Source: Candidatus Moraniibacteriota bacterium (GTDB lineage: Bacteria > Patescibacteriota > Minisyncoccia > Moranbacterales > UBA2206). Taken from it: a stretch of DNA of 64,000 nucleotides. The stretch lies in contig JAUXSK010000018.1 of the NCBI GenBank assembly GCA_030679995.1, positions 121,492-185,491 of the forward strand. Direction: 5' to 3'. The position numbers and the translations under genes were made by a program. The notes beneath the pieces were generated by a model. It saw nothing but the letters and a program-made list of their open reading frames with translations. It made no database searches and was not told the origin of the DNA. This document shows positions 1 through 55,540 of the stretch, piece by piece (the stretch's first letter is position 1; the number at the start of each line of letters is the position of its first letter).

Positions 1-683
1 TGTTGTGCAAGTCCGTCCATCCGGCTCCGAGCTTTGTCTTCCACTCCGCCTGATTTGAAAGCGATGATATTCGTTATTACATCGGAAACTTCCCCGGTCA
101 CCTCGCGATATATTTCATGGGAAAGGCGGCGGTATTTGTTCACCTTTGATGATGACCACGTCACATAAATAAATTGAATCAAAACAATCGTAGCCGCGAT
201 CAACCCGACTTGGGGAGATGCGAAAAAGAGCACTATCGGCGGCACAACAAGCGCGATAAAAGACCCCAGGGCCTCGCCTCGAAAGAAGCGAAGTAAAAGC
301 ATGGAGGCATCCAGGTGTTGTCTGAACATACTCGCCAAATAACCGGTTTGGTTATCGCGATAAAATGAGACATCTTTGCCTACTAATTTTTGATAAAAAG
401 CTACCGACAGCTTCGCATATTGCTTGCTTTCCGTATAATTGGACAATATTTCGCCAAGCGTACCGATTATAGCTGCAGCCAGATAGGCAAAGAAAAAATA
501 AAGCGTATATTTTTTTGCAGCATCAAAATTTCCTGAAGCGACATTGGCCGTAACTTGTGCTATGGCGATAGCCATATATACTCTCATAACGGCTATGCGG
601 AAAACCTCAGCGAAAAAACCGATCCATTGTTCAAGGTTATGGCCATAGGTTCGGAATATGAATTTGTAGACTTCTTTGTTCAT
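1..683 (-). CDS. ABC exporter, N-terminal transmembrane domain (MsbA/ABCB-type), 5' part only. The gene runs off the window start; ATG is at 683..681 on the minus strand.
   Basis: Own translation of the minus strand gives MNKEVYKFIFRTYGHNLEQW...FRIAVMRVYMAIAIAQVTANVASGNF...FYQKLVGKDVSFYRDNQTGYLASMF. This is a hydrophobic six-helix ABC exporter TMD pattern. No stop codon occurs before position 1. Confidence 0.55.
   Translation of the reverse strand, partial: MNKEVYKFIFRTYGHNLEQWIGFFAEVFRIAVMRVYMAIAIAQVTANVASGNFDAAKKYTLYFFFAYLAAAIIGTLGEILSNYTESKQYAKLSVAFYQKLVGKDVSFYRDNQTGYLASMFRQHLDASMLLLRFFRGEALGSFIALVVPPIVLFFASPQVGLIAATIVLIQFIYVTWSSSKVNKYRRLSHEIYREVTGEVSDVITNIIAFKSGGVEDKARSRMDGLAQ
343..402. 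repeat. Copy 1 (inside the ABC exporter CDS) of a 58-60 bp imperfect direct repeat; copy 2 is at 1763..1820.
   Basis: ggtttggttatcgcgataaaatgagacatctttgcctactaatttttgataaaaagct is about 90% identical to the 1763..1820 segment. On the minus strand both copies encode AFYQKLVGKDVSFYRDNQTG, so all differences are synonymous. Confidence 0.7.
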
Positions 684-1008
684 CTGGCGCAGCTTATTTG
701 TTTTTTAATAATAACACTTATGCCAAGTTAAGTTAATTCAACGATATGTGTAATACTGCGGCTGCTATGATTTTTTTAAAGCGGTTTTGGCTTCTTCAGG
801 GCTCGGAGTATCTGTATGAAATGGACTCAGCAATCCATTTTTTAATGTGTGGACTTGACTTCTTTTGATTTTATGCTAATTTCTATTGTCATTGTTATTT
901 TAAAAATAAGGCACGAGCTGGCAGTTGAATAATCAAAATTATTGATTGTTCGGCTGTCAGTTTGTGAATATGATTCCAAATAATGTCTACTTCAAGGGAG
1001 GTGTTGAA

Positions 1009-1587
1009 ATGGAATATGATCTAAGTAAGGTTCCGATCAGTGAGCTTGCCAGTGCTTTGTTGGCGCGAGTGGAGGAAATTTTTGGGAATGGAAATTGGTT
1101 AATTCCGGCAGCATTCGCATTATACAAAGCCATGGGCCCGGTGGCTTGCGTGGACGGCATACCATGGCAGCTTAACGAAAGGGGAGAGATGGAGTTGCTG
1201 GCTATGCGACGCCGCACGGGCCCTTATCCTGGGAAGCTTGTCGTGGTGGGAGGAAAGATCGCAATGAAAGAGAGTCTGCAAGACGCGCTTGGCAGGCACT
1301 TTCGGGATGATCTGGGTGTTGAAATTATAATGGCGGAAGAGTCTCTGTGCATGTCCCAATATCGGAAAGACAACCCGAACGATTTGTGGATGCAGGATCC
1401 TGGTAAAGACCATGCAGTCGCGCCCGTGTACCTCGTACAAATCAAGGGTGATGCTCCTTCCCAGAGTCTTCAGGCGGATCCCTTGATGTGGTTTTCTGAA
1501 GACTCCATACCTCCAGCTTTGGAATTTGGCTACGACAATGAACGACTGTACCGCAAGGCCTTTCGTTGCCTTAAAGGAAAGTCTTAA
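1009..1587 (+). CDS. Divergent Nudix-like hydrolase (192 aa from the SD-supported start; the ORF track opens at 946).
   Basis: AGGGAGGTG sits 6 nt before ATG 1009. GGKIAMKESLQDALGRHFRDDLGV fits a degenerate Nudix box G-x5-E-x7-R(E/H)-x-x-(E/D)(E/D)-x-G. A strong terminator follows. Confidence 0.4.
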   Translation: MEYDLSKVPISELASALLARVEEIFGNGNWLIPAAFALYKAMGPVACVDGIPWQLNERGEMELLAMRRRTGPYPGKLVVVGGKIAMKESLQDALGRHFRDDLGVEIIMAEESLCMSQYRKDNPNDLWMQDPGKDHAVAPVYLVQIKGDAPSQSLQADPLMWFSEDSIPPALEFGYDNERLYRKAFRCLKGKS

Positions 1588-1597
1588 GGAATTACAA

Positions 1598-1650
1598 CCC
1601 ACCAGCAGAAAGCAGAAATCCATCTGTGCTGCTAGGTGGGTTTTTTGTTT
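1598..1650 (+). terminator. Rho-independent terminator.
   Basis: cccaccagcag...ctgctaggtggg stem followed by tttttt(g)ttttt. Confidence 0.7.
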
Positions 1651-1762
1651 TTATAAAAATGCGGTTCTGAATTTTTCCATACTTCGGAGCATCACTGGAT
1701 AACTAGAACTAAGAGCTCTAGCTTTTCTTTATTTAAGGGCATTTCAGCTTTGCTAAATAGCC

Positions 1763-1820
1763 TGTTTGATTATCGCGATAAAATGAAACATCTTTGCCTA
1801 CCAGCTTTTGATAAAAAGCT
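1763..1820. repeat. Copy 2 of the ABC-CDS-derived repeat. It is intergenic: an orphan gene fragment.
   Basis: See copy 1. Sequence outside the 58 bp is unrelated. Confidence 0.7.
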
Positions 1821-1915
1821 GTTTATTTATTTGATTTTTACGTATTTTTAATATACAATTAAATCGTGTTAGTCTTTTAAAAGGCAATATTTTAAGCATA
1901 AAAACAGGGGAGAAA

Positions 1916-4900
1916 ATGAAAAAAAATCCAATTTTGTTTTTATTTATTGCAGGCCATATTGTTTTTGGCTTGTTTTTTTTTAAAATAGAGGTCAACAGGA
2001 CGCTAGCTAGTTCTGAATTTGAGGTTAGTGAAAAAACCAGTCCTGTTTTTTCAACGCTAATTCCTGATCAGGCTTTTGTAATTAAGGATGATACTAATTA
2101 CAAGGTCTATTATGCTGGAGATGATTTTATTTCGATTAATCTGGCTCAATCGCCGGATGGTATAAATTGGACACCGTATTCTGGCAATCCTATTGTCAAT
2201 GATGCTCAATATCACGCTAATGTAAAGTTTTTCAATTCCGGATTTTCAGGTGAAAATATTGGAGATAATCCAAGCTCCGACATGATGTATTATAGGATGT
2301 GGTATGCGGGCTTGAATCAAAATAGCATAGCCGGGTGGAGATATGCCGAATCACCGGATGGAATCAGCTGGTATAACCGTATCAATGTTTCACAGTTTGG
2401 ACCGGCGGTATATAGTGCGCAAACAGGAGTGACATATGGAATTGCGGATGTGGTTTATACTGCGGGAGCGTCAAATAGTGGAATGGATTGGACTTTTAGG
2501 ATTTATGCAAATGTACAGTGGGAGGCAGGTGATTTTGCCGGCAAAGAACTCGTTGTGATGGCTTTTTCAAGCGATGGCTATAATTGGACCGGATATGACC
2601 CCACCTCGGTTGGCTATGCAACTCCAGTATTTAAGGGGACTCTTATTAGCGGTGATTTCGACAGTGATCATATTGGCTGGTTTAAGGTTATTAAAAATAA
2701 TCCAACTTTTTGGGAGGCTTTTTATTCTGGTGGAGCCGACACAACCTATCAATCATTGAATGGAATAGGTTATGCCTCATCAACAGATGGAATCAATTGG
2801 ATACGCGGGCAGAAACTATTTTCTACGGAAGATTCAATGTTATGGAGAAAAAGAAGTGTTTGGATGCCTTCAGTGGTAAAAACAGCCTCCAATTATCAAG
2901 TTTGGTTTTTGGGATCGGATAACTCTGATATCGCAAGTTCTGATTGGATTCAGTGGAAATTGGGTTTGGCAAATTTAGTGATGATTGCTCCGATAATATC
3001 TGACACTTCACCGGCAGATGCTGCAATAAATATTTCGACAACCGGAAATATTACTGCCTCCTTTAATGGAATAATGGATTCTTCAACAATAAATTCATCA
3101 ACATTTACTCTGGCCAAAGGCGCGACACCGATTGCTGGATCTGTCAGTTATGCAGGAACAACAGCGACTTTTATGTCGGCAAATGATCTTTTGCCTTTCA
3201 CTGAATATACTGCCACGGTGACAACGGGCGTCAAAGATATTTCCGGAGTAGCATTAAGTTCTGATTATTCGTGGACTTTTACGACCGGCCGATCCTATAT
3301 GGATTGGAATGACCAAGGCGTTGTTTTTACTGCTCCTTCTTCGGGTGACGCATATTATCCCAGTGTTATTTATAATGCCGGCGGATTTGGTGGCATTCAA
3401 CCGGCATATTCTATGTGGTATTCAGACGGATCGGGTGCTGTGTATATAACTAGATCTTCGGATGGTGTAACTTGGGATAATCCGACAGCAACGGTTGGGC
3501 TGGTTGGTGCCCATCATGCGCAGATTTTGTATGATGAAGATTGTTTCGGAACAGTTCCCTGTACGGATGGTACGATAAAATATCGAATTTGGTTTTGGGA
3601 TATTTCAAAATTATATAGTATTTCCGCGATAGCTACGGCTGAATCCGTTGATGGAATGAATTGGACTAACCAGCAATCATTGACTCAAGATGCATCTTTG
3701 AAATTAATTCAGGATCCTGATTCGGGTATCGGTTGGAACAGAGGCAGCTATGGTCCGGTATCTTTATTTTATCAATCGGATGCATCTAATACCGGCAATG
3801 AACCATGGAATTATCGATACGTAATGTATTACAACGGCACAGACGGCAGTTCGGAAGGTACCGGACTTGCATATTCCTCGGATGGCGTGTATTGGTCGGC
3901 ATATTCATCCAATCCAATTTTAGCTGGTTCTTCTGTGGCAGGCTGGGATTGTTTGAGTTCTTCCTATGGAACCGTACTTAGGGATTCTGCGGGTTTCCAC
4001 TATTTTTTTAGCGGTCGCGGCATGGATGATGGTGCGGGGGGTTGCGCCTATCCTTCAAGTTTTGATGGCATTGGCTATGCGTATTCAGTCGATGGTAAAA
4101 CTTGGATCAAAAGTTTGGATAATCCGATATTTCATATAAGCGATGGAGTGGCATATCGTGATGAACGAATTTATACGCCATCTGTCATAAATGACGCTAC
4201 GGGAATTTTAAAAATGTATTTTTCCGCAAAACAAACAGACCAGCCAAAGAAAATCGCTTATGCTACCATAGCACCTTTGAGTGAATCAAAAGCCATTACA
4301 TCTTTTAGTTTTCCGGAGGGAACGGGTGTCATTAATGAAACCGCTTACACAATCGCAGTGGAAGTATCTTCCGGTTCGGATTTAAATGCTCTTGTGCCAA
4401 CGATTGTCATCAGTGGAATATCAATCAGTCCGCGTTCCGACATCGCCCAAGATTTTACTTCGCCGGTCATATATAAAGTCACTGCTGAGAATGGAACGAC
4501 TCAAGAATATCTGGTTACGGTTACGGAAAAAGCTGAAGACGAAGATGAAGACGAAGATGAAGACGAAGACGAAGACGAAGATGAAGACGAAACAAAATCA
4601 TCAGATCATAAAAATAATTCGGATAAGAAAACAAAAAAAAATCCAGCAGCAACAACTACAACAGCCGAGACAATGACAGGCATAGCAGCACTGGAGGCGT
4701 TGGGCATGGGTGAGGCGGCACCGGGAATAACAATTGATGGCATACCTGTGGCATCTAGTGAAAAAAATCCCCTTACGGACGAAAAGTATAAATTTAACTG
4801 GATTTGGGTGATCATAGGTATTGTGTTGTTCATATTGCTGTTGATAATTCTTTTTGCTAAAAAACAAAAGAATAAATTCAAATTTTATTTCGCATCTCCA

Positions 4901-5161
4901 GCAGTTACCGGAATTGTTGATGAAACAGCCAAGACTGTTAAGTTTACTGTGCCTTTCGGCACTAATGTGAGTGCTCTTGTTCCAACAATCAAACTTTCTG
5001 ACGGCGCGTCAATCCGTCCGCGTTCCGACATCGCCCAAAACTTTACTTTGCCGGTCGTATATAAACTCACTGCTAGGGACGGAGTGACTCAATCGTACAC
5101 AGTTACGGCAAAGGTTGCTTCTAGGTCGGAATTCAACGCCAAAACAAAGGGGACAGCCTAA
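1916..5161 (+). CDS. Very large secreted/membrane-anchored multidomain protein (1081 aa). Domains in order: N-terminal signal anchor; about 8 S-x-D-G-x-x-W propeller-blade motifs (GH43/GH130/BNR-like beta-propellers); an Ig-like domain; a duplicated ~75-aa C-terminal module; an (ED)n acidic tract; a late TM helix.
   Basis: GGGGAG SD. N-terminus MKKNPILFLFIAGHIVFGLFFF. Propeller motifs include SPDGINWT, SPDGISWY, SSDGYNWT, STDGINWI, SSDGVTWD, SVDGMNWT, SSDGVYWS and SVDGKTWI. EDEDEDEDEDEDEDEDE is followed by the TM helix WIWVIIGIVLFILLLIILF. The two related modules read ...LVPTIVISGISISPRSDIAQDFTSPVIYKVTAENGTTQEYLVTVT and ...LVPTIKLSDGASIRPRSDIAQNFTLPVVYKLTARDGVTQSYTVTA. Confidence 0.8.
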   Translation: MKKNPILFLFIAGHIVFGLFFFKIEVNRTLASSEFEVSEKTSPVFSTLIPDQAFVIKDDTNYKVYYAGDDFISINLAQSPDGINWTPYSGNPIVNDAQYHANVKFFNSGFSGENIGDNPSSDMMYYRMWYAGLNQNSIAGWRYAESPDGISWYNRINVSQFGPAVYSAQTGVTYGIADVVYTAGASNSGMDWTFRIYANVQWEAGDFAGKELVVMAFSSDGYNWTGYDPTSVGYATPVFKGTLISGDFDSDHIGWFKVIKNNPTFWEAFYSGGADTTYQSLNGIGYASSTDGINWIRGQKLFSTEDSMLWRKRSVWMPSVVKTASNYQVWFLGSDNSDIASSDWIQWKLGLANLVMIAPIISDTSPADAAINISTTGNITASFNGIMDSSTINSSTFTLAKGATPIAGSVSYAGTTATFMSANDLLPFTEYTATVTTGVKDISGVALSSDYSWTFTTGRSYMDWNDQGVVFTAPSSGDAYYPSVIYNAGGFGGIQPAYSMWYSDGSGAVYITRSSDGVTWDNPTATVGLVGAHHAQILYDEDCFGTVPCTDGTIKYRIWFWDISKLYSISAIATAESVDGMNWTNQQSLTQDASLKLIQDPDSGIGWNRGSYGPVSLFYQSDASNTGNEPWNYRYVMYYNGTDGSSEGTGLAYSSDGVYWSAYSSNPILAGSSVAGWDCLSSSYGTVLRDSAGFHYFFSGRGMDDGAGGCAYPSSFDGIGYAYSVDGKTWIKSLDNPIFHISDGVAYRDERIYTPSVINDATGILKMYFSAKQTDQPKKIAYATIAPLSESKAITSFSFPEGTGVINETAYTIAVEVSSGSDLNALVPTIVISGISISPRSDIAQDFTSPVIYKVTAENGTTQEYLVTVTEKAEDEDEDEDEDEDEDEDEDETKSSDHKNNSDKKTKKNPAATTTTAETMTGIAALEALGMGEAAPGITIDGIPVASSEKNPLTDEKYKFNWIWVIIGIVLFILLLIILFAKKQKNKFKFYFASPAVTGIVDETAKTVKFTVPFGTNVSALVPTIKLSDGASIRPRSDIAQNFTLPVVYKLTARDGVTQSYTVTAKVASRSEFNAKTKGTA
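4535..4590 (+). repeat. In-frame tandem hexanucleotide repeat (gaagac/gaagat), about 9 units, encoding the (ED)n tract.
   Basis: gaagacgaagatgaagacgaagatgaagacgaagacgaagacgaagatgaagacgaa. Confidence 0.85.
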
Positions 5162-5230
5162 TAAAAAAACACCTAACACCACCAATCGTTCGATGTAAAT
5201 AATATTTTTTAATTTTAAACAACCAATATT

Positions 5231-6391
5231 ATGAACCAAAAAAGCATTATCGTAATTCTAGGATTTATTATCGTCTTCCTGACAGGCATAGTCGTATATT
5301 TTACAATAATAAATAAAGCGAATCAGCCAATTGATTCATCAGCACAACGTCAATCCATATCTTCACTGGAAAAAAATGAGATCGCATCTACGCAGATATC
5401 CGCGCCTGCTATAAAATTCGAGGGGCGGTATATAGATGTGCATACGCATATCATGCCGTCGGGGATGTCTCTCGAAGAGATGCTTAAAAATATGGATATT
5501 GAAGGTATCGATACTATGATAATAATGGAGACTCCAACGTCGATTTATATGGGAAAATCTCAAGAGGAGTATGGGATTCCAAGCGCTTCAGAAAAATATC
5601 CAAATAGATTCATCTCATTGTACGGAGGAGAGGCGATGACTCTGCTTGATATCGTTATCAAGAAAGGAGGATATACCCAATCACAAGAAGAAAAATACAC
5701 CGCTCTTCTTGAAGACGCAATGAAATCGGGTAAATACAAGGGCTTTGGAGAGATTGCGTTGAGACATATATCGCTTGGAGGAGAAGGAGCTGATGTGACT
5801 ATTCCAGGAGATCATCCATGGATGTTTATTATGAGCGATATCGCAGCTAAGTATGATTTGCCAATTGATATACATATGGATGTTGCAACTGCGAACGAAG
5901 GAATAGCTGGTCTTGAAAAACTTCTTGATCATAATAAAAACACAAAAATTATTTGGTCCCATACAGCTTGGTCAAGGACTGATTATAAATCTGGATCCAT
6001 TGAATTGATGCGGCGGTTATTTGAGAAACATCCGAATTTATATTCAAGCGTCAAAATCCAGACCGAAACTGCATTTATGGATGGCGGGGTGGGGATGAAG
6101 CAGCAGCCGCAAAAGGGAGCGGGCAGGGGAGAAAAACAACTGAGCTCCGGAAATGGCGGGACAAAACCATCACCACAGCAAGGACTAACCAGCGGAATCA
6201 ATCTTGAATGGTTGGCTTTATTCAAAGAATATCCAGAACGCTTTATGATGGGAAGTGATATAAAGCCCGGGGAAAGGCCAAATGAGTTCGCATACATAAA
6301 AGCTCACAGAAAATTTTTGGAACAATTACCCGCTGAAATTCTTAAACAGATTGAAAGAAATAATGCCAAAGAAATTTTTAAAATTAATTGA
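5231..6391 (+). CDS. Membrane-anchored amidohydrolase-2 family (TIM-barrel metal-dependent hydrolase) with a Gly/Gln-rich low-complexity insertion.
   Basis: N-terminal TM helix. The motifs YIDVHTHIMP and DIHMD are metal-binding His/Asp motifs typical of PF04909. The insertion MDGGVGMKQQPQKGAGRGEKQLSSGNGGTKPSPQQG lies at about 6085..6200. Confidence 0.6.
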   Translation: MNQKSIIVILGFIIVFLTGIVVYFTIINKANQPIDSSAQRQSISSLEKNEIASTQISAPAIKFEGRYIDVHTHIMPSGMSLEEMLKNMDIEGIDTMIIMETPTSIYMGKSQEEYGIPSASEKYPNRFISLYGGEAMTLLDIVIKKGGYTQSQEEKYTALLEDAMKSGKYKGFGEIALRHISLGGEGADVTIPGDHPWMFIMSDIAAKYDLPIDIHMDVATANEGIAGLEKLLDHNKNTKIIWSHTAWSRTDYKSGSIELMRRLFEKHPNLYSSVKIQTETAFMDGGVGMKQQPQKGAGRGEKQLSSGNGGTKPSPQQGLTSGINLEWLALFKEYPERFMMGSDIKPGERPNEFAYIKAHRKFLEQLPAEILKQIERNNAKEIFKIN

Positions 6392-6677
6392 GCTTAATTT
6401 GTAAATTTAAAGGCACTGTCGTAATTAGACTGGATTATGGATATCCGACCCCTTTATTTCCGCGGATTTTATCTTCCGCCAGAGCCAAGGTCGCCGAAGC
6501 GATTGTGGAAGGGAAGGCATTAAAAATCGAAGAGTAATGGAAAGTATGCTATAATCTAGCCATACAAACAAGTTAAAAAAGTCACGCCGTTTATTTTTTC
6601 GGTTCCATCCTCTTTTGTTGTCCTATCCGATTGGCGATGTGAAGCAAATAAATTAATAATTATTAAAAAACGAAAAG

Positions 6678-7343
6678 ATGAAAAAAACACTACTGATTGC
6701 TTTTTTCCTGGTGTTTGGAATGGCCGTCCAAGCCCAAGCGTCAAGCGCGAACCCTAACCAAGGTTCGAAGCCGGAGCAGGCTAATCCCCAGGTAAGCCAA
6801 ACTGGGAACGCCGTCCAAGTCCAAGAAAAAAACGAGGTTAAAAACCAAGGGGAAGAAACTCAAATCCAAACCCAAGAACAGAACGAGGTTGTGGCTAAAG
6901 ACAAAAAAGAAAACAAACCCCAGGATGCTGCCGAATTGCACAGGAGTGCGGTGGCTAATTTTGTCCAAGGTTTATTAGCCATAGCTGACAGGGAAGGCGG
7001 AATCGGGCAGGAGGTGAGGGTGATCGCCCAACAGCAAAATGATGTGAAAGATCGGGCGGCCGACTTGATATATGCCGTTGAAAATAGGAGCGATGTGAAA
7101 ACATTCTTCATAGGCACGAGTTATAAAAATTTGGGAGAATTGCGGGGCCAGACGGTCCAAGCCAGGAATCAAATCGAGCAATTGAAGCGGTTGGCTGACA
7201 AGGCGGACAACGAGCAGAACAGGATCGAATTGCAAGCGCAAATCCGGACGCTGGAGCAAGAGCAGGTGAATATCGATAATTTTATCGCTCAAAATGAAAA
7301 CAAATTCAGCGTATTCGGTTGGGCAGTGAGGCTTTTCCGATAA
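6678..7343 (+). CDS. Secreted coiled-coil protein with an N-terminal Q/N/E-rich repetitive region.
   Basis: Signal peptide MKKTLLIAFFLVFGMAVQAQA. Imperfect repeats NAVQVQEKNEVKNQGEETQIQTQEQNEV. Heptad-like C-terminal half. Confidence 0.55.
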   Translation: MKKTLLIAFFLVFGMAVQAQASSANPNQGSKPEQANPQVSQTGNAVQVQEKNEVKNQGEETQIQTQEQNEVVAKDKKENKPQDAAELHRSAVANFVQGLLAIADREGGIGQEVRVIAQQQNDVKDRAADLIYAVENRSDVKTFFIGTSYKNLGELRGQTVQARNQIEQLKRLADKADNEQNRIELQAQIRTLEQEQVNIDNFIAQNENKFSVFGWAVRLFR

Positions 7344-7372
7344 TTCTATCTTTTTGGGATAACCATAAAAAA

Positions 7373-7394
7373 CCGCCGGCAAGGGCGGTTTTTT
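7373..7394 (+). terminator. Rho-independent terminator.
   Basis: ccgccggcaagggcgg followed by tttttt. Confidence 0.75.
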
Positions 7395-7513
7395 GCTGAT
7401 TGGAAGATGGATATGCCAATTTTTTCTCCCGTTGCGGGACATTGTCCGGATAGGGGGCATTCCTCCGTCCGGGCGGTATTTTTTATCCTGAAAAAGTACC
7501 GGTATCCGGACCA

Positions 7514-7542
7514 TTGACATATCCGCCAGGCGGGCGTATCAT
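7514..7542 (+). promoter_or_regulatory. Sigma70-like promoter for the arsR operon.
   Basis: TTGACA, 17 nt spacer, TATCAT. A perfect palindrome GGACAtTGTCC lies about 80 nt upstream and is a candidate operator. Confidence 0.5.
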
Positions 7543-7569
7543 TCTAATATAAATTAGGATGATATACAT

Positions 7570-7878
7570 ATGGAATTCAGATGTTGCGTGAAAAATTCAA
7601 CTGAGGCGGAAGATGTCGGCAAAGCATACGCTTTTTTGCGCGCCGTTTCGGATTCCAACAGACTGAAAATCCTTTGCGTCTTGCAAACCGGCTCAAAATG
7701 CGTTTGCGAAATCGTTCCGGCCGTCGGCATATCGGATAAACTGGCCTCGCATCACCTCAAACAATTGAAAGGCGCCGGACTCCTAGTTGAGAAGAGAGAG
7801 GGTAAATTCATCCGCTACGGTTTGGATAAAAAGGCGATCAATGCATATAAGAAAATTTTTAATCAAGTAATAAAATAA
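7570..7878 (+). CDS. arsR: ArsR/SmtB-family metalloregulator.
   Basis: Winged-HTH signature RLKILCVLQTGSKCVCEIVPAVGISDKLASHHLKQLKGAGLL with a Cys pair in the metal-site position. Confidence 0.8.
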   Translation: MEFRCCVKNSTEAEDVGKAYAFLRAVSDSNRLKILCVLQTGSKCVCEIVPAVGISDKLASHHLKQLKGAGLLVEKREGKFIRYGLDKKAINAYKKIFNQVIK

Positions 7879-20321: not shown

Positions 20322-20358
20322 GGACATAGTCTGAAGTTTGAAAAAATGTTTAAGAGGA

Positions 20359-20490
20359 CTATGATCCGCGCATTGAGATGAAATTTAGAAAGAATTGATT
20401 GGTCGCTTGCGTTTGCGCGGGGAGTCGAATGGCGAAACCGGTTTAGACCGAAAAGTTGCAAGACTTTTCAGCTTGGCCGGTTTTTTATTT
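20359..20490 (+). ncRNA. Conserved structured leader RNA, copy A, with an intrinsic terminator (candidate riboswitch/attenuator).
   Basis: About 85% identical to copies B and C. It has a long-range helix CCGCGCA/UGCGCGG, a conserved GGGGAGUCGAAUGGCGAAACCGG, and a long terminator hairpin followed by UUUUUU 34 nt before the GT2 start. Confidence 0.6.
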
Positions 20491-20523
20491 GCGGCAATTG
20501 GATTTTTCAATAAATGAAACCTG

Positions 20524-26830: not shown

Positions 26831-26871
26831 TGTGGATAGTTGAATATTGATAGAACGCCATACTTTGAAAG

Positions 26872-27009
26872 GCTATGATCCGTGCATTGAGATGAAATTT
26901 TGAGAGAGTTGATTGGTTGCTTACGTTTGCACGAGGAGTCGAATGGCAAAACCGGTTTGAACCAAAAAGTTGTGAGACTTTTTGGTTTAAGTCGGTTTTT
27001 ATTTTTTTT
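26872..27009 (+). ncRNA. Conserved structured leader RNA, copy B.
   Basis: Same motif as copy A. P1 carries a compensatory change (CCGUGCA/UGCACG versus CCGCGCA/UGCGCGG). The terminator stem ACCAAAAAGU/ACUUUUUGGU also covaries. U-run. Confidence 0.6.
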
Positions 27010-33597: not shown

Positions 33598-33635
33598 GCA
33601 ACAGCAGAATCTTAAAAATAGCATACTTAAAAAGA

Positions 33636-33770
33636 TTATGATCCGCGCATTGTGATGAAATTTCGAGAGAGTTTCTTGGTCACTTATGTTTGTGCGGGGA
33701 GTCTAATAGTGAAACCGGTTTGGGCCGAAAAGTTGTGAGACTTTTCAGTTTGGACCGGTTTTTTATTTTT
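33636..33770 (+). ncRNA. Conserved structured leader RNA, copy C.
   Basis: Same motif. P1 has a G-U variant (UGUGCGG). The terminator is followed by UUUUUUAUUUUU. It lies 134 nt before the first TasA-like gene. Confidence 0.6.
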
Positions 33771-47672: not shown

Positions 47673-48134
47673 ATGCTTGACGTAAAACCCTATCGGCAAA
47701 AACCCGGATTTTGCGGGCCGGCTTCCCTGAAGATGGTGTTGGATTTTTATGGCGTGGAAAAAAGCGAGGAGGAGCTGGGGAAAATCACCAAGTGCGATCC
47801 GGATAAAGGCATCACCGGCTTGGCTATCGTCAAAGCGGCTGAAAAACTTGGTTTTGCCGGGTTTCTGAAGGATTATGCCAAATTGGAAGATATTAAAAAA
47901 TTTTTAACTAAAAAAATCCCCGTTATCGTAGAGTGGTTTTCAGTGGATGACGGACATTTTTCCGTGGTAGTGGAAATGGATAAAAAATATATTTATCTGC
48001 AGGATCCGGAATTAGCCGGCGTGCGCAAGATCGATTTGGAAACTTTCGAGCGTATCTGGTTCAGTTTCGATACCAAAACCATACGCAAAGAAAGGGATTT
48101 GGTTTTGCGCCGGATGGTCGTGATTGAAAAGTAA
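47673..48134 (+). CDS. Peptidase C39-like domain protein (standalone).
   Basis: YRQKPGFCGPASLKMVL carries the catalytic Cys context; the His is in DGHFSVVVE. An extended -10 tactataat is present upstream. Confidence 0.6.
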   Translation: MLDVKPYRQKPGFCGPASLKMVLDFYGVEKSEEELGKITKCDPDKGITGLAIVKAAEKLGFAGFLKDYAKLEDIKKFLTKKIPVIVEWFSVDDGHFSVVVEMDKKYIYLQDPELAGVRKIDLETFERIWFSFDTKTIRKERDLVLRRMVVIEK

Positions 48135-48162
48135 AATTAAAAACTGCTGTCCTCGGGATAGC
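48096..48162. repeat. Copy 1 of a 67-bp direct repeat: the 3' end of the C39-like gene plus, on the minus strand, a remnant C-terminus (...YPEDSSF*) of a homolog of gene 55516..56109.
   Basis: gatttggttttgcgccggatggtcgtgattgaaaagtaaaattaaaaactgctgtcctcgggatag is about 88% identical to 55472..55540. Confidence 0.75.
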
Positions 48163-55471: not shown

Positions 55472-55540
55472 GATGATTTGGTTTCGCGCCGGATGGTCGT
55501 GATCGAAAAGGAAAATTAAAAACCGCTGTCCTTGGGATAG
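55472..55540. repeat. Copy 2 of the 67-bp direct repeat. It holds an orphan 19-codon remnant (MRIKDDLVSRRMVVIEKEN*) of a C39-like gene 3' end on the plus strand, and the true 3' end of gene 55516..56109 on the minus strand.
   Basis: ggatgatttggtttcgcgccggatggtcgtgatcgaaaaggaaaattaaaaaccgctgtccttgggatag. Confidence 0.75.

What the first reader, a model, noticed from the sequence alone, without database searches (positions are those of the whole stretch)
343..1820. 58-bp coding fragment of the ABC exporter duplicated 1.4 kb away with only synonymous differences; a Nudix-like gene sits between the copies
Segment 343..402 lies inside the ABC exporter CDS (minus strand). Segment 1763..1820 is intergenic. 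They differ at about 6 positions, and every difference is synonymous in the exporter reading frame (both encode AFYQKLVGKDVSFYRDNQTG). Sequence outside the 58 bp is unrelated. A random duplication followed by drift would not preserve codon synonymy. The second copy therefore looks like a leftover of a homologous, allelic ABC gene: the scar of a recombination or replacement event that brought in the 1009..1587 Nudix-like gene together with its own terminator.
Basis: seen in the sequence. Interest (0 to 1): 0.5.

Follow-up and report, generated by a model that had tools for sequence, protein, structure and literature searches.

The report
Orphan ABC-exporter gene fragment
A 72-base piece of a related strain's version of the neighbouring ABC exporter gene sits stranded between two genes in a Moranbacteria genome; it is most likely an ordinary leftover of gene shuffling, not a working element.

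Summary
Window 333-404 lies inside an intact 584-aa ABC exporter gene on the minus strand (codons 94-117). Window 1751-1822 is intergenic. Both are 24-codon copies of the same segment, in direct orientation, 1418 nt apart. They differ by 9 synonymous bases plus one Thr/Val codon.

The orphan copy is not a copy of the resident gene. Its 24-aa translation is identical only to the two closest orthologues (P0001, P0002). It differs from them by 8 and 7 bases, all synonymous, against 11 from the resident gene. So it came from another allele that was coding until recently.

A relative about 80% identical (L002) has the ABC gene at the syntenic position. The stretch upstream of it differs there, with no Nudix gene and no fragment. 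The fragment therefore lies in a cassette-turnover hotspot.

Its flanks show no ABC similarity. No integrase, att-like identity, DGR pattern or RNA family was found. None of 7 relatives carries such a fragment.

Best reading: a relic of a second, foreign or displaced ABC allele, trimmed by deletions. The link to the arrival of the Nudix gene is unproven. Interest is low to moderate.

The parts
1..683 (-). 5' part (codons 1-227) of an intact 584-aa ABC subfamily-B exporter gene (TMD+NBD). The rest of the gene lies left of the window.
   Evidence: Translation; Pfam ABC_membrane 1.7e-13; full gene in L001 590-2344; orthologues at 60-89% identity across Patescibacteria.
333..404 (-). Copy A: codons 94-117 of the resident exporter (VAFYQKLVGKDVSFYRDNQTGYLA).
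684..738 (-). Leader and promoter-proximal stretch that travels with the ABC gene. Similarity to the relatives' ABC loci ends between 711 and 738, depending on the relative.
   Evidence: blastn to L002, L005 and L020 extends 36-38 nt upstream of their start codons.
1009..1587 (+). Nudix-like DUF4916 gene (192 aa). GC is about 53% against about 40% in the flanks. The Nudix box is degenerate: G-x5-E-x7-R is present, but the REUxEE glutamates read H, D, D.
   Evidence: Pfam; composition; only 10 homologues, in unrelated contexts; box read directly from the translation.
1599..1655 (+). GC-rich hairpin plus T-run: intrinsic terminator of the Nudix gene, conserved with the Nudix module in L013 and L011.
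   Evidence: blastn similarity to L013/L014 spans 995-1681.
1751..1822 (-). Copy B: orphan 24-codon fragment (TAFYQKLVGKDVSFYRDNQTGYLA) of a P0001/P0002-type allele of the exporter. Non-coding here.
1802..1840 (+). Perfect 8-bp palindromic hairpin (CAGCTTTT-GATA-AAAAGCTG) formed by the end of copy B, followed by a T-rich run. It is terminator-like, and its base coincides with the right boundary of the fragment.
   Evidence: sequence read. The fold of 1650-1845 is not unusual (z = -1.0).
1831..1859 (+). Sigma-70-like promoter match (TTGATT-17-TACAAT) ahead of gene 1916-5161.
   Evidence: consensus match only.
1916..5161 (+). 1081-aa secreted or surface protein (Big_5, DUF5018) that bounds the fragment on the right. 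It lies in the same variable block.
   Evidence: Pfam; nearest homologues at most 62% identical over most of its length, in other phyla.

Best explanation
Copy B is a non-functional relic of a second copy of the exporter gene, of the allele type seen in the closest relatives (P0001/P0002). That copy once lay, whole or in part, in the variable region upstream of the resident ABC gene.

The region between the ABC gene and the conserved 221-aa gene is a hotspot where unrelated cassettes are gained and lost. Here these are the Nudix gene, the large surface-protein gene and an amidohydrolase gene.

Inferred sequence of events:
1. DNA from a related Moranbacteria lineage carrying part of its ABC orthologue entered this hotspot. 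The likely route is recombination anchored in ABC homology at one end with an illegitimate join at the other (homology-facilitated illegitimate recombination), which leaves a partial duplicate of the anchor gene.
2. The redundant 5' stub was then trimmed by deletion. One deletion end point lies at the base of a perfect 8-bp palindrome, and 24 codons remain.

Shown: the fragment's allelic origin, its recent loss of coding status, its non-coding state, the hotspot, and the absence of the fragment in relatives.

Inferred: the recombination mechanism, the order of events, and which neighbouring cassette (if any) arrived with it.
For: (1) The repeat is real and far beyond chance.
(2) Copy B translates to the exact 24-aa peptide of P0001 and P0002. 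Only these two of the 120 best family members have Thr before AFYQ....
(3) Base differences are 8 against P0001 and 7 against P0002, all synonymous. Against the resident copy A there are 9 synonymous differences plus the Thr/Val codon.
(4) Only 22% of random single changes in this tract would be synonymous. P(all synonymous) is about 1e-6 to 3e-5 if the changes arose in non-coding DNA, and 0.01-0.03 if half did.
(5) No base of B is unique among six alleles, so there has been little decay since it stopped coding.
(6) The resident gene is the vertical orthologue. It is 82.3% identical to L002 over 1812 nt, like the syntenic 221-aa gene (80.1%) and the HTH_5 gene (80.4%). The stretch between the ABC gene and the 221-aa gene is unrelated in the two genomes.
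(7) The Nudix gene and the surface-protein gene each have homologues only in unrelated contexts, and the Nudix GC is atypical.
(8) A second orphan gene-end fragment in the same window (55475-55540, copying 48096-48161) shows that such relics recur in this genome.
(9) An analogous displacement that leaves stubs of the anchor gene is proposed for T6SS effector-immunity arrays and Rhs loci (PMC5361080, read).
Against: No donor or intermediate state was found. No sampled genome has a longer ABC remnant or an ABC orthologue next to a close homologue of either flanking cassette. At least two events are needed, because both flanks of B lack any ABC similarity. The tract is short (about 17 synonymous sites), so distance comparisons among alleles are weak. 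B's very short private branch could also mean conservation rather than youth. The exact coincidence of the fragment's end with a hairpin plus T-run leaves room for co-option.
Confidence: 0.6

Rival explanations
1. Local duplication. A piece of the resident ABC gene was copied 1.4 kb upstream by slippage or templated repair. The differences then accumulated mainly in the coding copy, where only synonymous changes survive.
For: The repeat is direct and close. Changes on the coding branch would be synonymous by selection, so all-synonymous is not impossible (0.012 for 9 differences if half fell on the non-coding copy).
Against: B is closer to P0001 and P0002 (8 and 7 differences) than to the resident copy (11). 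It carries their Thr codon rather than the resident Val. A neutral copy old enough to allow 9 synonymous changes in A should show its own non-synonymous-type changes, and it shows none. Relatives with the same locus lack it.
Confidence: 0.1
2. Co-opted element. The fragment is kept because it does something: it acts as an extra terminator or insulator between the Nudix cassette and the surface-protein gene, or it acts as a plus-strand RNA antisense to codons 94-117 of the exporter mRNA.
For: The end of B forms a perfect 8-bp hairpin followed by a T-run on the plus strand, while copy A forms only a 5-bp A-T stem there. The fragment's boundary sits at the hairpin base. B shows no private substitutions. 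On the plus strand it is 88% complementary to the exporter mRNA, with perfect runs of 17, 15 and 14 nt.
Against: No plus-strand promoter match lies between the strong Nudix terminator and B. No Rfam family matches. The fold is not better than shuffles (z = -1.0). The fragment is absent from all 7 relatives examined, so no conservation can be shown. The hairpin is largely a by-product of the codons A-F-Y-Q-K-L and is near-perfect in the coding alleles P0001 and P0002 too.
Confidence: 0.1
3. Attachment-site duplication. An integrative element inserted into the exporter gene carrying its own version of the target segment, as e14 does with icd and icdC. Copies A and B would then be attR and attL.
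For: Direct repeats of a coding segment that differ by synonymous changes are the e14/icd signature (PMC13626634).
Against: The segment between the repeats is 1.35 kb and holds no integrase, only the ABC 5' end, its leader and a Nudix gene. In that model B must be followed by the displaced original codons 1-93, but its flank has stops and no ABC similarity. The longest identical run is 17 nt and there is no third copy in 64 kb. There is no match to phage, plasmid or viral collections.
Confidence: 0.04
4. Assembly artefact. Reads from a co-occurring strain's ABC allele were stitched into the contig.
For: The source is a metagenome-assembled genome, and P0001/P0002-type alleles exist in nature.
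Against: A chimeric join would switch into continuing ABC sequence on one side. Here 72 nt are flanked on both sides by non-ABC sequence, which would need two joins with no shared k-mers. Two assemblies (the NCBI MAG and Logan SRR13727519) are identical over 4576 nt including B, though they may share reads.
Confidence: 0.05

Closest known systems
Displaced stubs or 'orphans' left by homology-facilitated illegitimate recombination next to a conserved anchor gene (Rhs C-terminal displacement; T6SS effector-immunity arrays in Vibrio cholerae, PMC5361080)
   Same: A short piece of a conserved gene, of a different allele, lies next to the intact gene in the same orientation, in a locus where foreign modules are added successively. 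HFIR needs no site-specific recombinase, and none was found here.
   Different: There the stub is the end of the constant 5' region attached to a displaced 3' toxin tip and its immunity gene, and the arrays recur in many strains. Here the stub is an internal 24-codon piece upstream of the gene, attached to nothing. It is seen in one genome only, and the exporter is not a polymorphic toxin.
e14 / phage 21 integration into icd of E. coli, leaving the icdC pseudogene fragment (Hill et al. 1989, as described in PMC13626634)
   Same: A coding fragment is duplicated as a direct repeat, the copies differ mostly synonymously, and one copy is an orphan.
   Different: icdC runs to the end of the gene and bounds a 15-kb prophage with an integrase. 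Here there is no integrase, the block between the repeats is 1.35 kb, and the orphan lacks the gene end that the model requires.
Ordinary pseudogene relics after xenologous gene displacement or loss of a redundant paralogue in streamlined genomes (general knowledge)
   Same: A short, frame-preserved fragment with no start codon and stops on both sides, lying in a variable region.
   Different: It is unusually small and clean, with no indels and no non-synonymous change against its nearest alleles. This implies very recent truncation.
DGR template/variable repeat pairs (common in CPR genomes; from my own knowledge)
   Same: A non-coding near-copy of a coding segment lies close to the gene.
   Different: The mismatches are not confined to adenines of one copy: the B bases at mismatches are A, C, G, C, G, T, T, A, C, A, A. 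All but one mismatched codon are synonymous, whereas DGRs diversify amino acids. No reverse transcriptase lies nearby.

Membership tests
Gene relic (orphan fragment) of the CPR ABC subfamily-B exporter | Significant homology to an internal part of the gene, colinear and in one frame | tested here: met
   tblastn E = 3e-10 to P0001 and P0002 residues 94-119; blastn 90% over 72-77 nt to L002 and L020.
Gene relic (orphan fragment) of the CPR ABC subfamily-B exporter | Not part of any intact reading frame | tested here: met
   Stops flank the tract on both sides and there is no in-frame start. No further ABC similarity in the flanks.
Gene relic (orphan fragment) of the CPR ABC subfamily-B exporter | Derived from a gene copy distinct from the resident one | tested here: met
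   The Thr codon and the nearest-allele distances (7-8 against 11 differences) point to a P0001/P0002-type source. The tract is short, so support is moderate.
Gene relic (orphan fragment) of the CPR ABC subfamily-B exporter | Evolving neutrally (no conservation across genomes) | not testable with these tools
   No second genome carries the fragment.
att duplication by an integrative element (e14-icd type) | Integrase or recombinase gene within the bounded element | tested here: not met
   Between the repeats lie only the ABC 5' end, its leader and the Nudix gene. The neighbours scanned (p147, the surface protein, the amidohydrolase) have no recombinase domain. The 221-aa gene (6678-7343) was scanned against PADLOC only; its L002 orthologue has no Pfam hit on record.
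att duplication by an integrative element (e14-icd type) | The orphan copy continues into the displaced original end of the target gene | tested here: not met
   The sequence 5' of copy B (1823-1915) has stops and scores no better than shuffled sequence against ABC modules.
att duplication by an integrative element (e14-icd type) | Identical core shared by both copies | tested here: inconclusive
   The longest identical run is 17 nt (TTATCGCGATAAAATGA). No independent att site is available for comparison.
Product of homology-facilitated illegitimate recombination | One homologous and one illegitimate (microhomology) junction, identified by comparison with donor and recipient | not testable with these tools
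   Neither donor nor pre-event recipient was sampled. The resident gene shows no identity break against P0001.
DGR template/variable repeat pair | Mismatches restricted to adenines of the template repeat and concentrated in codon positions 1-2 | tested here: not met
   The mismatched bases are of all four kinds, and 9 of 11 are synonymous third- or first-position Leu changes.
Nudix hydrolase superfamily (gene 1009-1587) | Nudix-fold domain match above the curated cutoff | tested here: met
   PF00293 scores 30.9 bits (cutoff 21.1) and PF16262 DUF4916 scores 39.7 bits (cutoff 27).
Nudix hydrolase superfamily (gene 1009-1587) | Canonical Nudix box G-x5-E-x7-R-E-U-x-E-E-x-G-U | tested here: not met
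   The box reads GKIAMKESLQDALGRHFRDDLGV, so the RE and EE glutamates are replaced by H, D, D (translation). Catalytic competence is uncertain.

The most novel reading that the evidence does not exclude
The fragment is not junk. It would be a domesticated piece of the exporter gene, working in one of two ways. In the first, it is a plus-strand antisense RNA and terminator module that ties expression of the upstream cassette to repression of the ABC exporter mRNA. In the second, it is a retained homology anchor that lets related Patescibacteria swap cassettes at this hotspot without a recombinase, analogous to Rhs or T6SS orphan arrays but upstream of a transporter gene.
Probability: 0.08. Interest if true: 0.55.

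Novelty: new member of a known kind. Interest (0 to 1): 0.22.

Why it matters
If the reading is right, this is a small, datable footprint of horizontal exchange between related Moranbacteria at a defined hotspot next to a conserved ABC exporter. It shows that even tiny CPR genomes pick up and trim partial foreign gene copies without integrases. That is useful as an example for annotation: a conserved-looking 24-codon match that should not be called a gene or a regulatory motif. It is also useful for studies of recombination in uncultivated bacteria. It does not reveal a new mechanism or function.

Tried and rejected
- Mosaic test of the resident ABC gene against P0001, P0004 and P0008 in 60-codon windows: no identity break at the repeat.
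- Search for further ABC remnants in B's flanks and across the window: none. Other hits are NBDs of unrelated ABC genes.
- Orphan TMD fragments in 7 relatives' loci: none.
- Degenerate back-translated pattern scans: JGI metagenomes gave only the P0001 contig, and viral contigs gave none.
- Contexts of Nudix homologues and of surface-protein homologues: no ABC neighbour and no close donor.
- Nudix gene in viral contigs: none. The 684-1915 stretch against phages and plasmids: no match.
- Rfam on 1-2200 at E up to 1 and on the whole window at gathering score: nothing credible. No tRNA that could serve as an att site.
- RNA fold of 1650-1845: z = -1.0.
- PADLOC: only generic ATPase and Nudix hits.
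- DGR pattern: rejected on the mismatch spectrum.
- The 12-bp palindrome TTATCGCGATAA as an operator: rejected. About 16 palindromic 12-mers are expected by chance in 64 kb, and it is not conserved in orthologues.
- My first synonymy table was in the wrong frame and was redone.

Full report
**Observation.** The window begins inside a minus-strand ABC exporter gene. Its first 227 codons occupy 683-1 (Pfam ABC_membrane). The repeat finder reports a two-copy direct repeat, 334-402 and 1752-1820, 69 nt, 61/69 identical. A 32-nt core occurs exactly twice in 64 kb and never in 100 shuffles.

Read in the exporter's frame, the homologous tract is 24 complete codons. Copy A is 404-333 and encodes VAFYQKLVGKDVSFYRDNQTGYLA. 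Copy B is 1822-1751 and encodes TAFYQKLVGKDVSFYRDNQTGYLA. They differ by nine bases in synonymous codons plus two bases in the first codon, GTA against ACA.

Copy B has TAA directly 5' of the tract, another TAA six codons after it, and no in-frame start, so it is non-coding. Its flanks (1588-1750 and 1824-1915) score no better than shuffled sequence against five ABC gene modules that included 150 nt of upstream DNA.

**Context.** An exact-protein look-up recovered a Logan contig (L001) that is 100% identical to window 1-4576 and adds 1661 nt to the left. The exporter gene is complete and intact at 584 aa, and it is followed by a convergent 147-aa gene. The source is a Candidatus Moranbacteria MAG with a 196-kb contig.

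The 1.35 kb between the copies is therefore not an insert in the exporter. It contains the exporter's own first 93 codons, its leader (to about 738) and a divergently transcribed Nudix-like gene at 1009-1587. That gene matches DUF4916 and NUDIX, has about 53% GC against about 40% around it, and has a strong terminator of its own. To the right of copy B lie a promoter-like site and a 1081-aa surface-protein gene.

**Where copy B came from.** The exporter belongs to a family conserved at 60-89% identity across Patescibacteria. I fetched DNA for eight alleles.

- Copy B aligns at 90% over 72-77 nt to the two closest orthologues, P0001 (L002) and P0002 (L020).
- Its 24-aa translation, including the Thr that the resident gene lacks, is identical to those two proteins alone among the 120 best family members.
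- It differs from P0001 by 8 bases and from P0002 by 7, all synonymous, and from the resident copy by 11.
- Every base of copy B is present in at least one other allele.
- Only 22% of random single-base changes in this tract would be synonymous. If the differences had arisen in non-coding DNA, the chance that all are synonymous is about 1e-6 to 3e-5. If half had, it is 0.01-0.03.

The fragment therefore comes from a separate allele of the P0001/P0002/window clade that was under coding constraint until shortly before it was truncated. It is not a drifted copy of the resident gene. The tract is short, so the distance argument alone is modest. The Thr codon and the absence of any non-synonymous change carry most of the weight.

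**The locus is a turnover hotspot.** L002 is a genuine relative of the window genome.

- The ABC gene is 82.3% identical over 1812 nt.
- A 221-aa gene (window 6636-7441) is 80.1% identical.
- An HTH_5 gene (window 7514-7736) is 80.4% identical.
- All three are in the same order and orientation.

So the resident exporter looks vertically inherited. It shows no identity break at the repeat: 83.9, 83.3 and 82.7% for codons 1-93, 94-117 and 118-end.

Between the exporter's leader and the 221-aa gene the two genomes are unrelated. The window has the Nudix gene, copy B, the surface-protein gene and an amidohydrolase (739-6635). L002 has RsgA and a 177-aa gene. The Nudix gene has only ten homologues in 5.8 billion proteins, all in unrelated contexts without an ABC neighbour. 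The shared Nudix module ends near 1670-1690, about 60 nt before copy B. The surface protein's best full-length homologues are at most 62% identical and sit in other phyla. None of seven relatives' loci holds an orphan piece of the transmembrane domain.

**Mechanism.** The best-supported reading is a relic. A second, partial or complete, copy of the exporter of another allele type once lay in this hotspot and has been cut down to 24 codons.

A plausible route, which is inferred and not shown, is homology-facilitated illegitimate recombination. Incoming DNA from a related lineage pairs with the resident exporter at one end and joins illegitimately at the other. This leaves a partial duplicate of the anchor gene. 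A later deletion then removes the promoter-bearing stub.

This is the mechanism proposed for the stubs and orphans at Rhs and T6SS effector-immunity loci (PMC5361080). The right end of the fragment coincides with the base of a perfect 8-bp palindrome (1802-1821), a likely deletion end point. A second orphan gene-end fragment elsewhere in the window shows that such relics recur in this genome: 55475-55540 copies the 3' end of the C39-peptidase-like gene at 48096-48161 and carries non-synonymous and stop-codon changes.

**Rivals.**

- *Local duplication with drift.* This is disfavoured by the allele affinities and by the lack of any non-synonymous-type change.
- *An e14/icd-type att duplication (PMC13626634).* This fails two defining features: there is no integrase, and the displaced gene end is not adjacent to the orphan.
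- *A DGR template/variable pair.* This is excluded by the mismatch spectrum.
- *Co-option as a terminator or antisense RNA.* This cannot be excluded. The hairpin plus T-run is real, and the fragment has no private substitutions. However, there is no upstream promoter match, no Rfam family, no unusual fold and no conservation to test. The hairpin is also largely inherent to the codons A-F-Y-Q-K-L.
- *An assembly chimera.* This would need two joins without shared k-mers. Two assemblies agree, although they may share reads.

**Verdict.** The idea of an allelic leftover is supported. The claims that the event delivered the Nudix gene, and that it was a replacement or att-mediated event, are not supported. 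This is a new instance of a known kind of feature, a gene relic in a recombination hotspot, in an uncultivated Moranbacteria genome. Interest is low to moderate.

Noticed in passing
window 20345-20493, 26859-27007, 33622-33770 (+ strand): Three copies, 77-80% identical, of a roughly 150-nt element. Each lies just upstream of a plus-strand gene: a GT2 glycosyltransferase (20524), a GH81 glucanase (27058) and a camelysin/M73-like protein (33904). The predicted consensus fold is a multi-stem domain plus a long terminator-like hairpin with a T-run, and 3 pairs show compensatory changes. No Rfam family matches. This is a candidate leader or attenuator RNA for cell-surface or glycan genes.
   Followed up: partly
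window 48096-48161 and 55475-55540: A second orphan gene fragment. The last 13 codons plus 27 nt downstream of a Peptidase_C39-like gene (47673-48134) recur at 92% identity in an intergenic spot 7.4 kb away. The changes include Leu to Ser and stop to Glu, which fits a decaying relic.
   Followed up: partly
window 739-6635 and 7442-7513, compared with L002 5769-7962 and 225-4972: Two variable segments lie between conserved genes shared with the P0001 genome. The second is 72 nt in the window but 4.7 kb in L002, where it holds a glyoxalase, a 137-aa gene and a pair of ABC exporter genes. Gene content at this locus turns over quickly between genomes that are about 80% identical.
   Followed up: partly
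window 1009-1587: The DUF4916/Nudix protein has a degenerate Nudix box (RHFRDD in place of REUxEE). It has only about 10 homologues in 5.8 billion proteins, all in Patescibacteria-like contexts, and its GC is about 13 points above its surroundings.
   Followed up: partly
window 4421-4520 / 5009-5108 and 4518-4595: The 1081-aa surface protein contains an internal 100-nt repeat (81% identical, DUF5018-type domains) and an acidic (GAAGAY)n tract that encodes poly-Glu/Asp.
   Followed up: no
L002/L005 loci (relatives of the ABC gene): The exporter orthologue repeatedly sits beside small resistance-type genes (glyoxalase/bleomycin-resistance-like, RibD_C, 3-demethylubiquinone methyltransferase-like, SAM methyltransferase) in different arrangements. 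This suggests a detoxification or efflux island that moves among CPR lineages.
   Followed up: no
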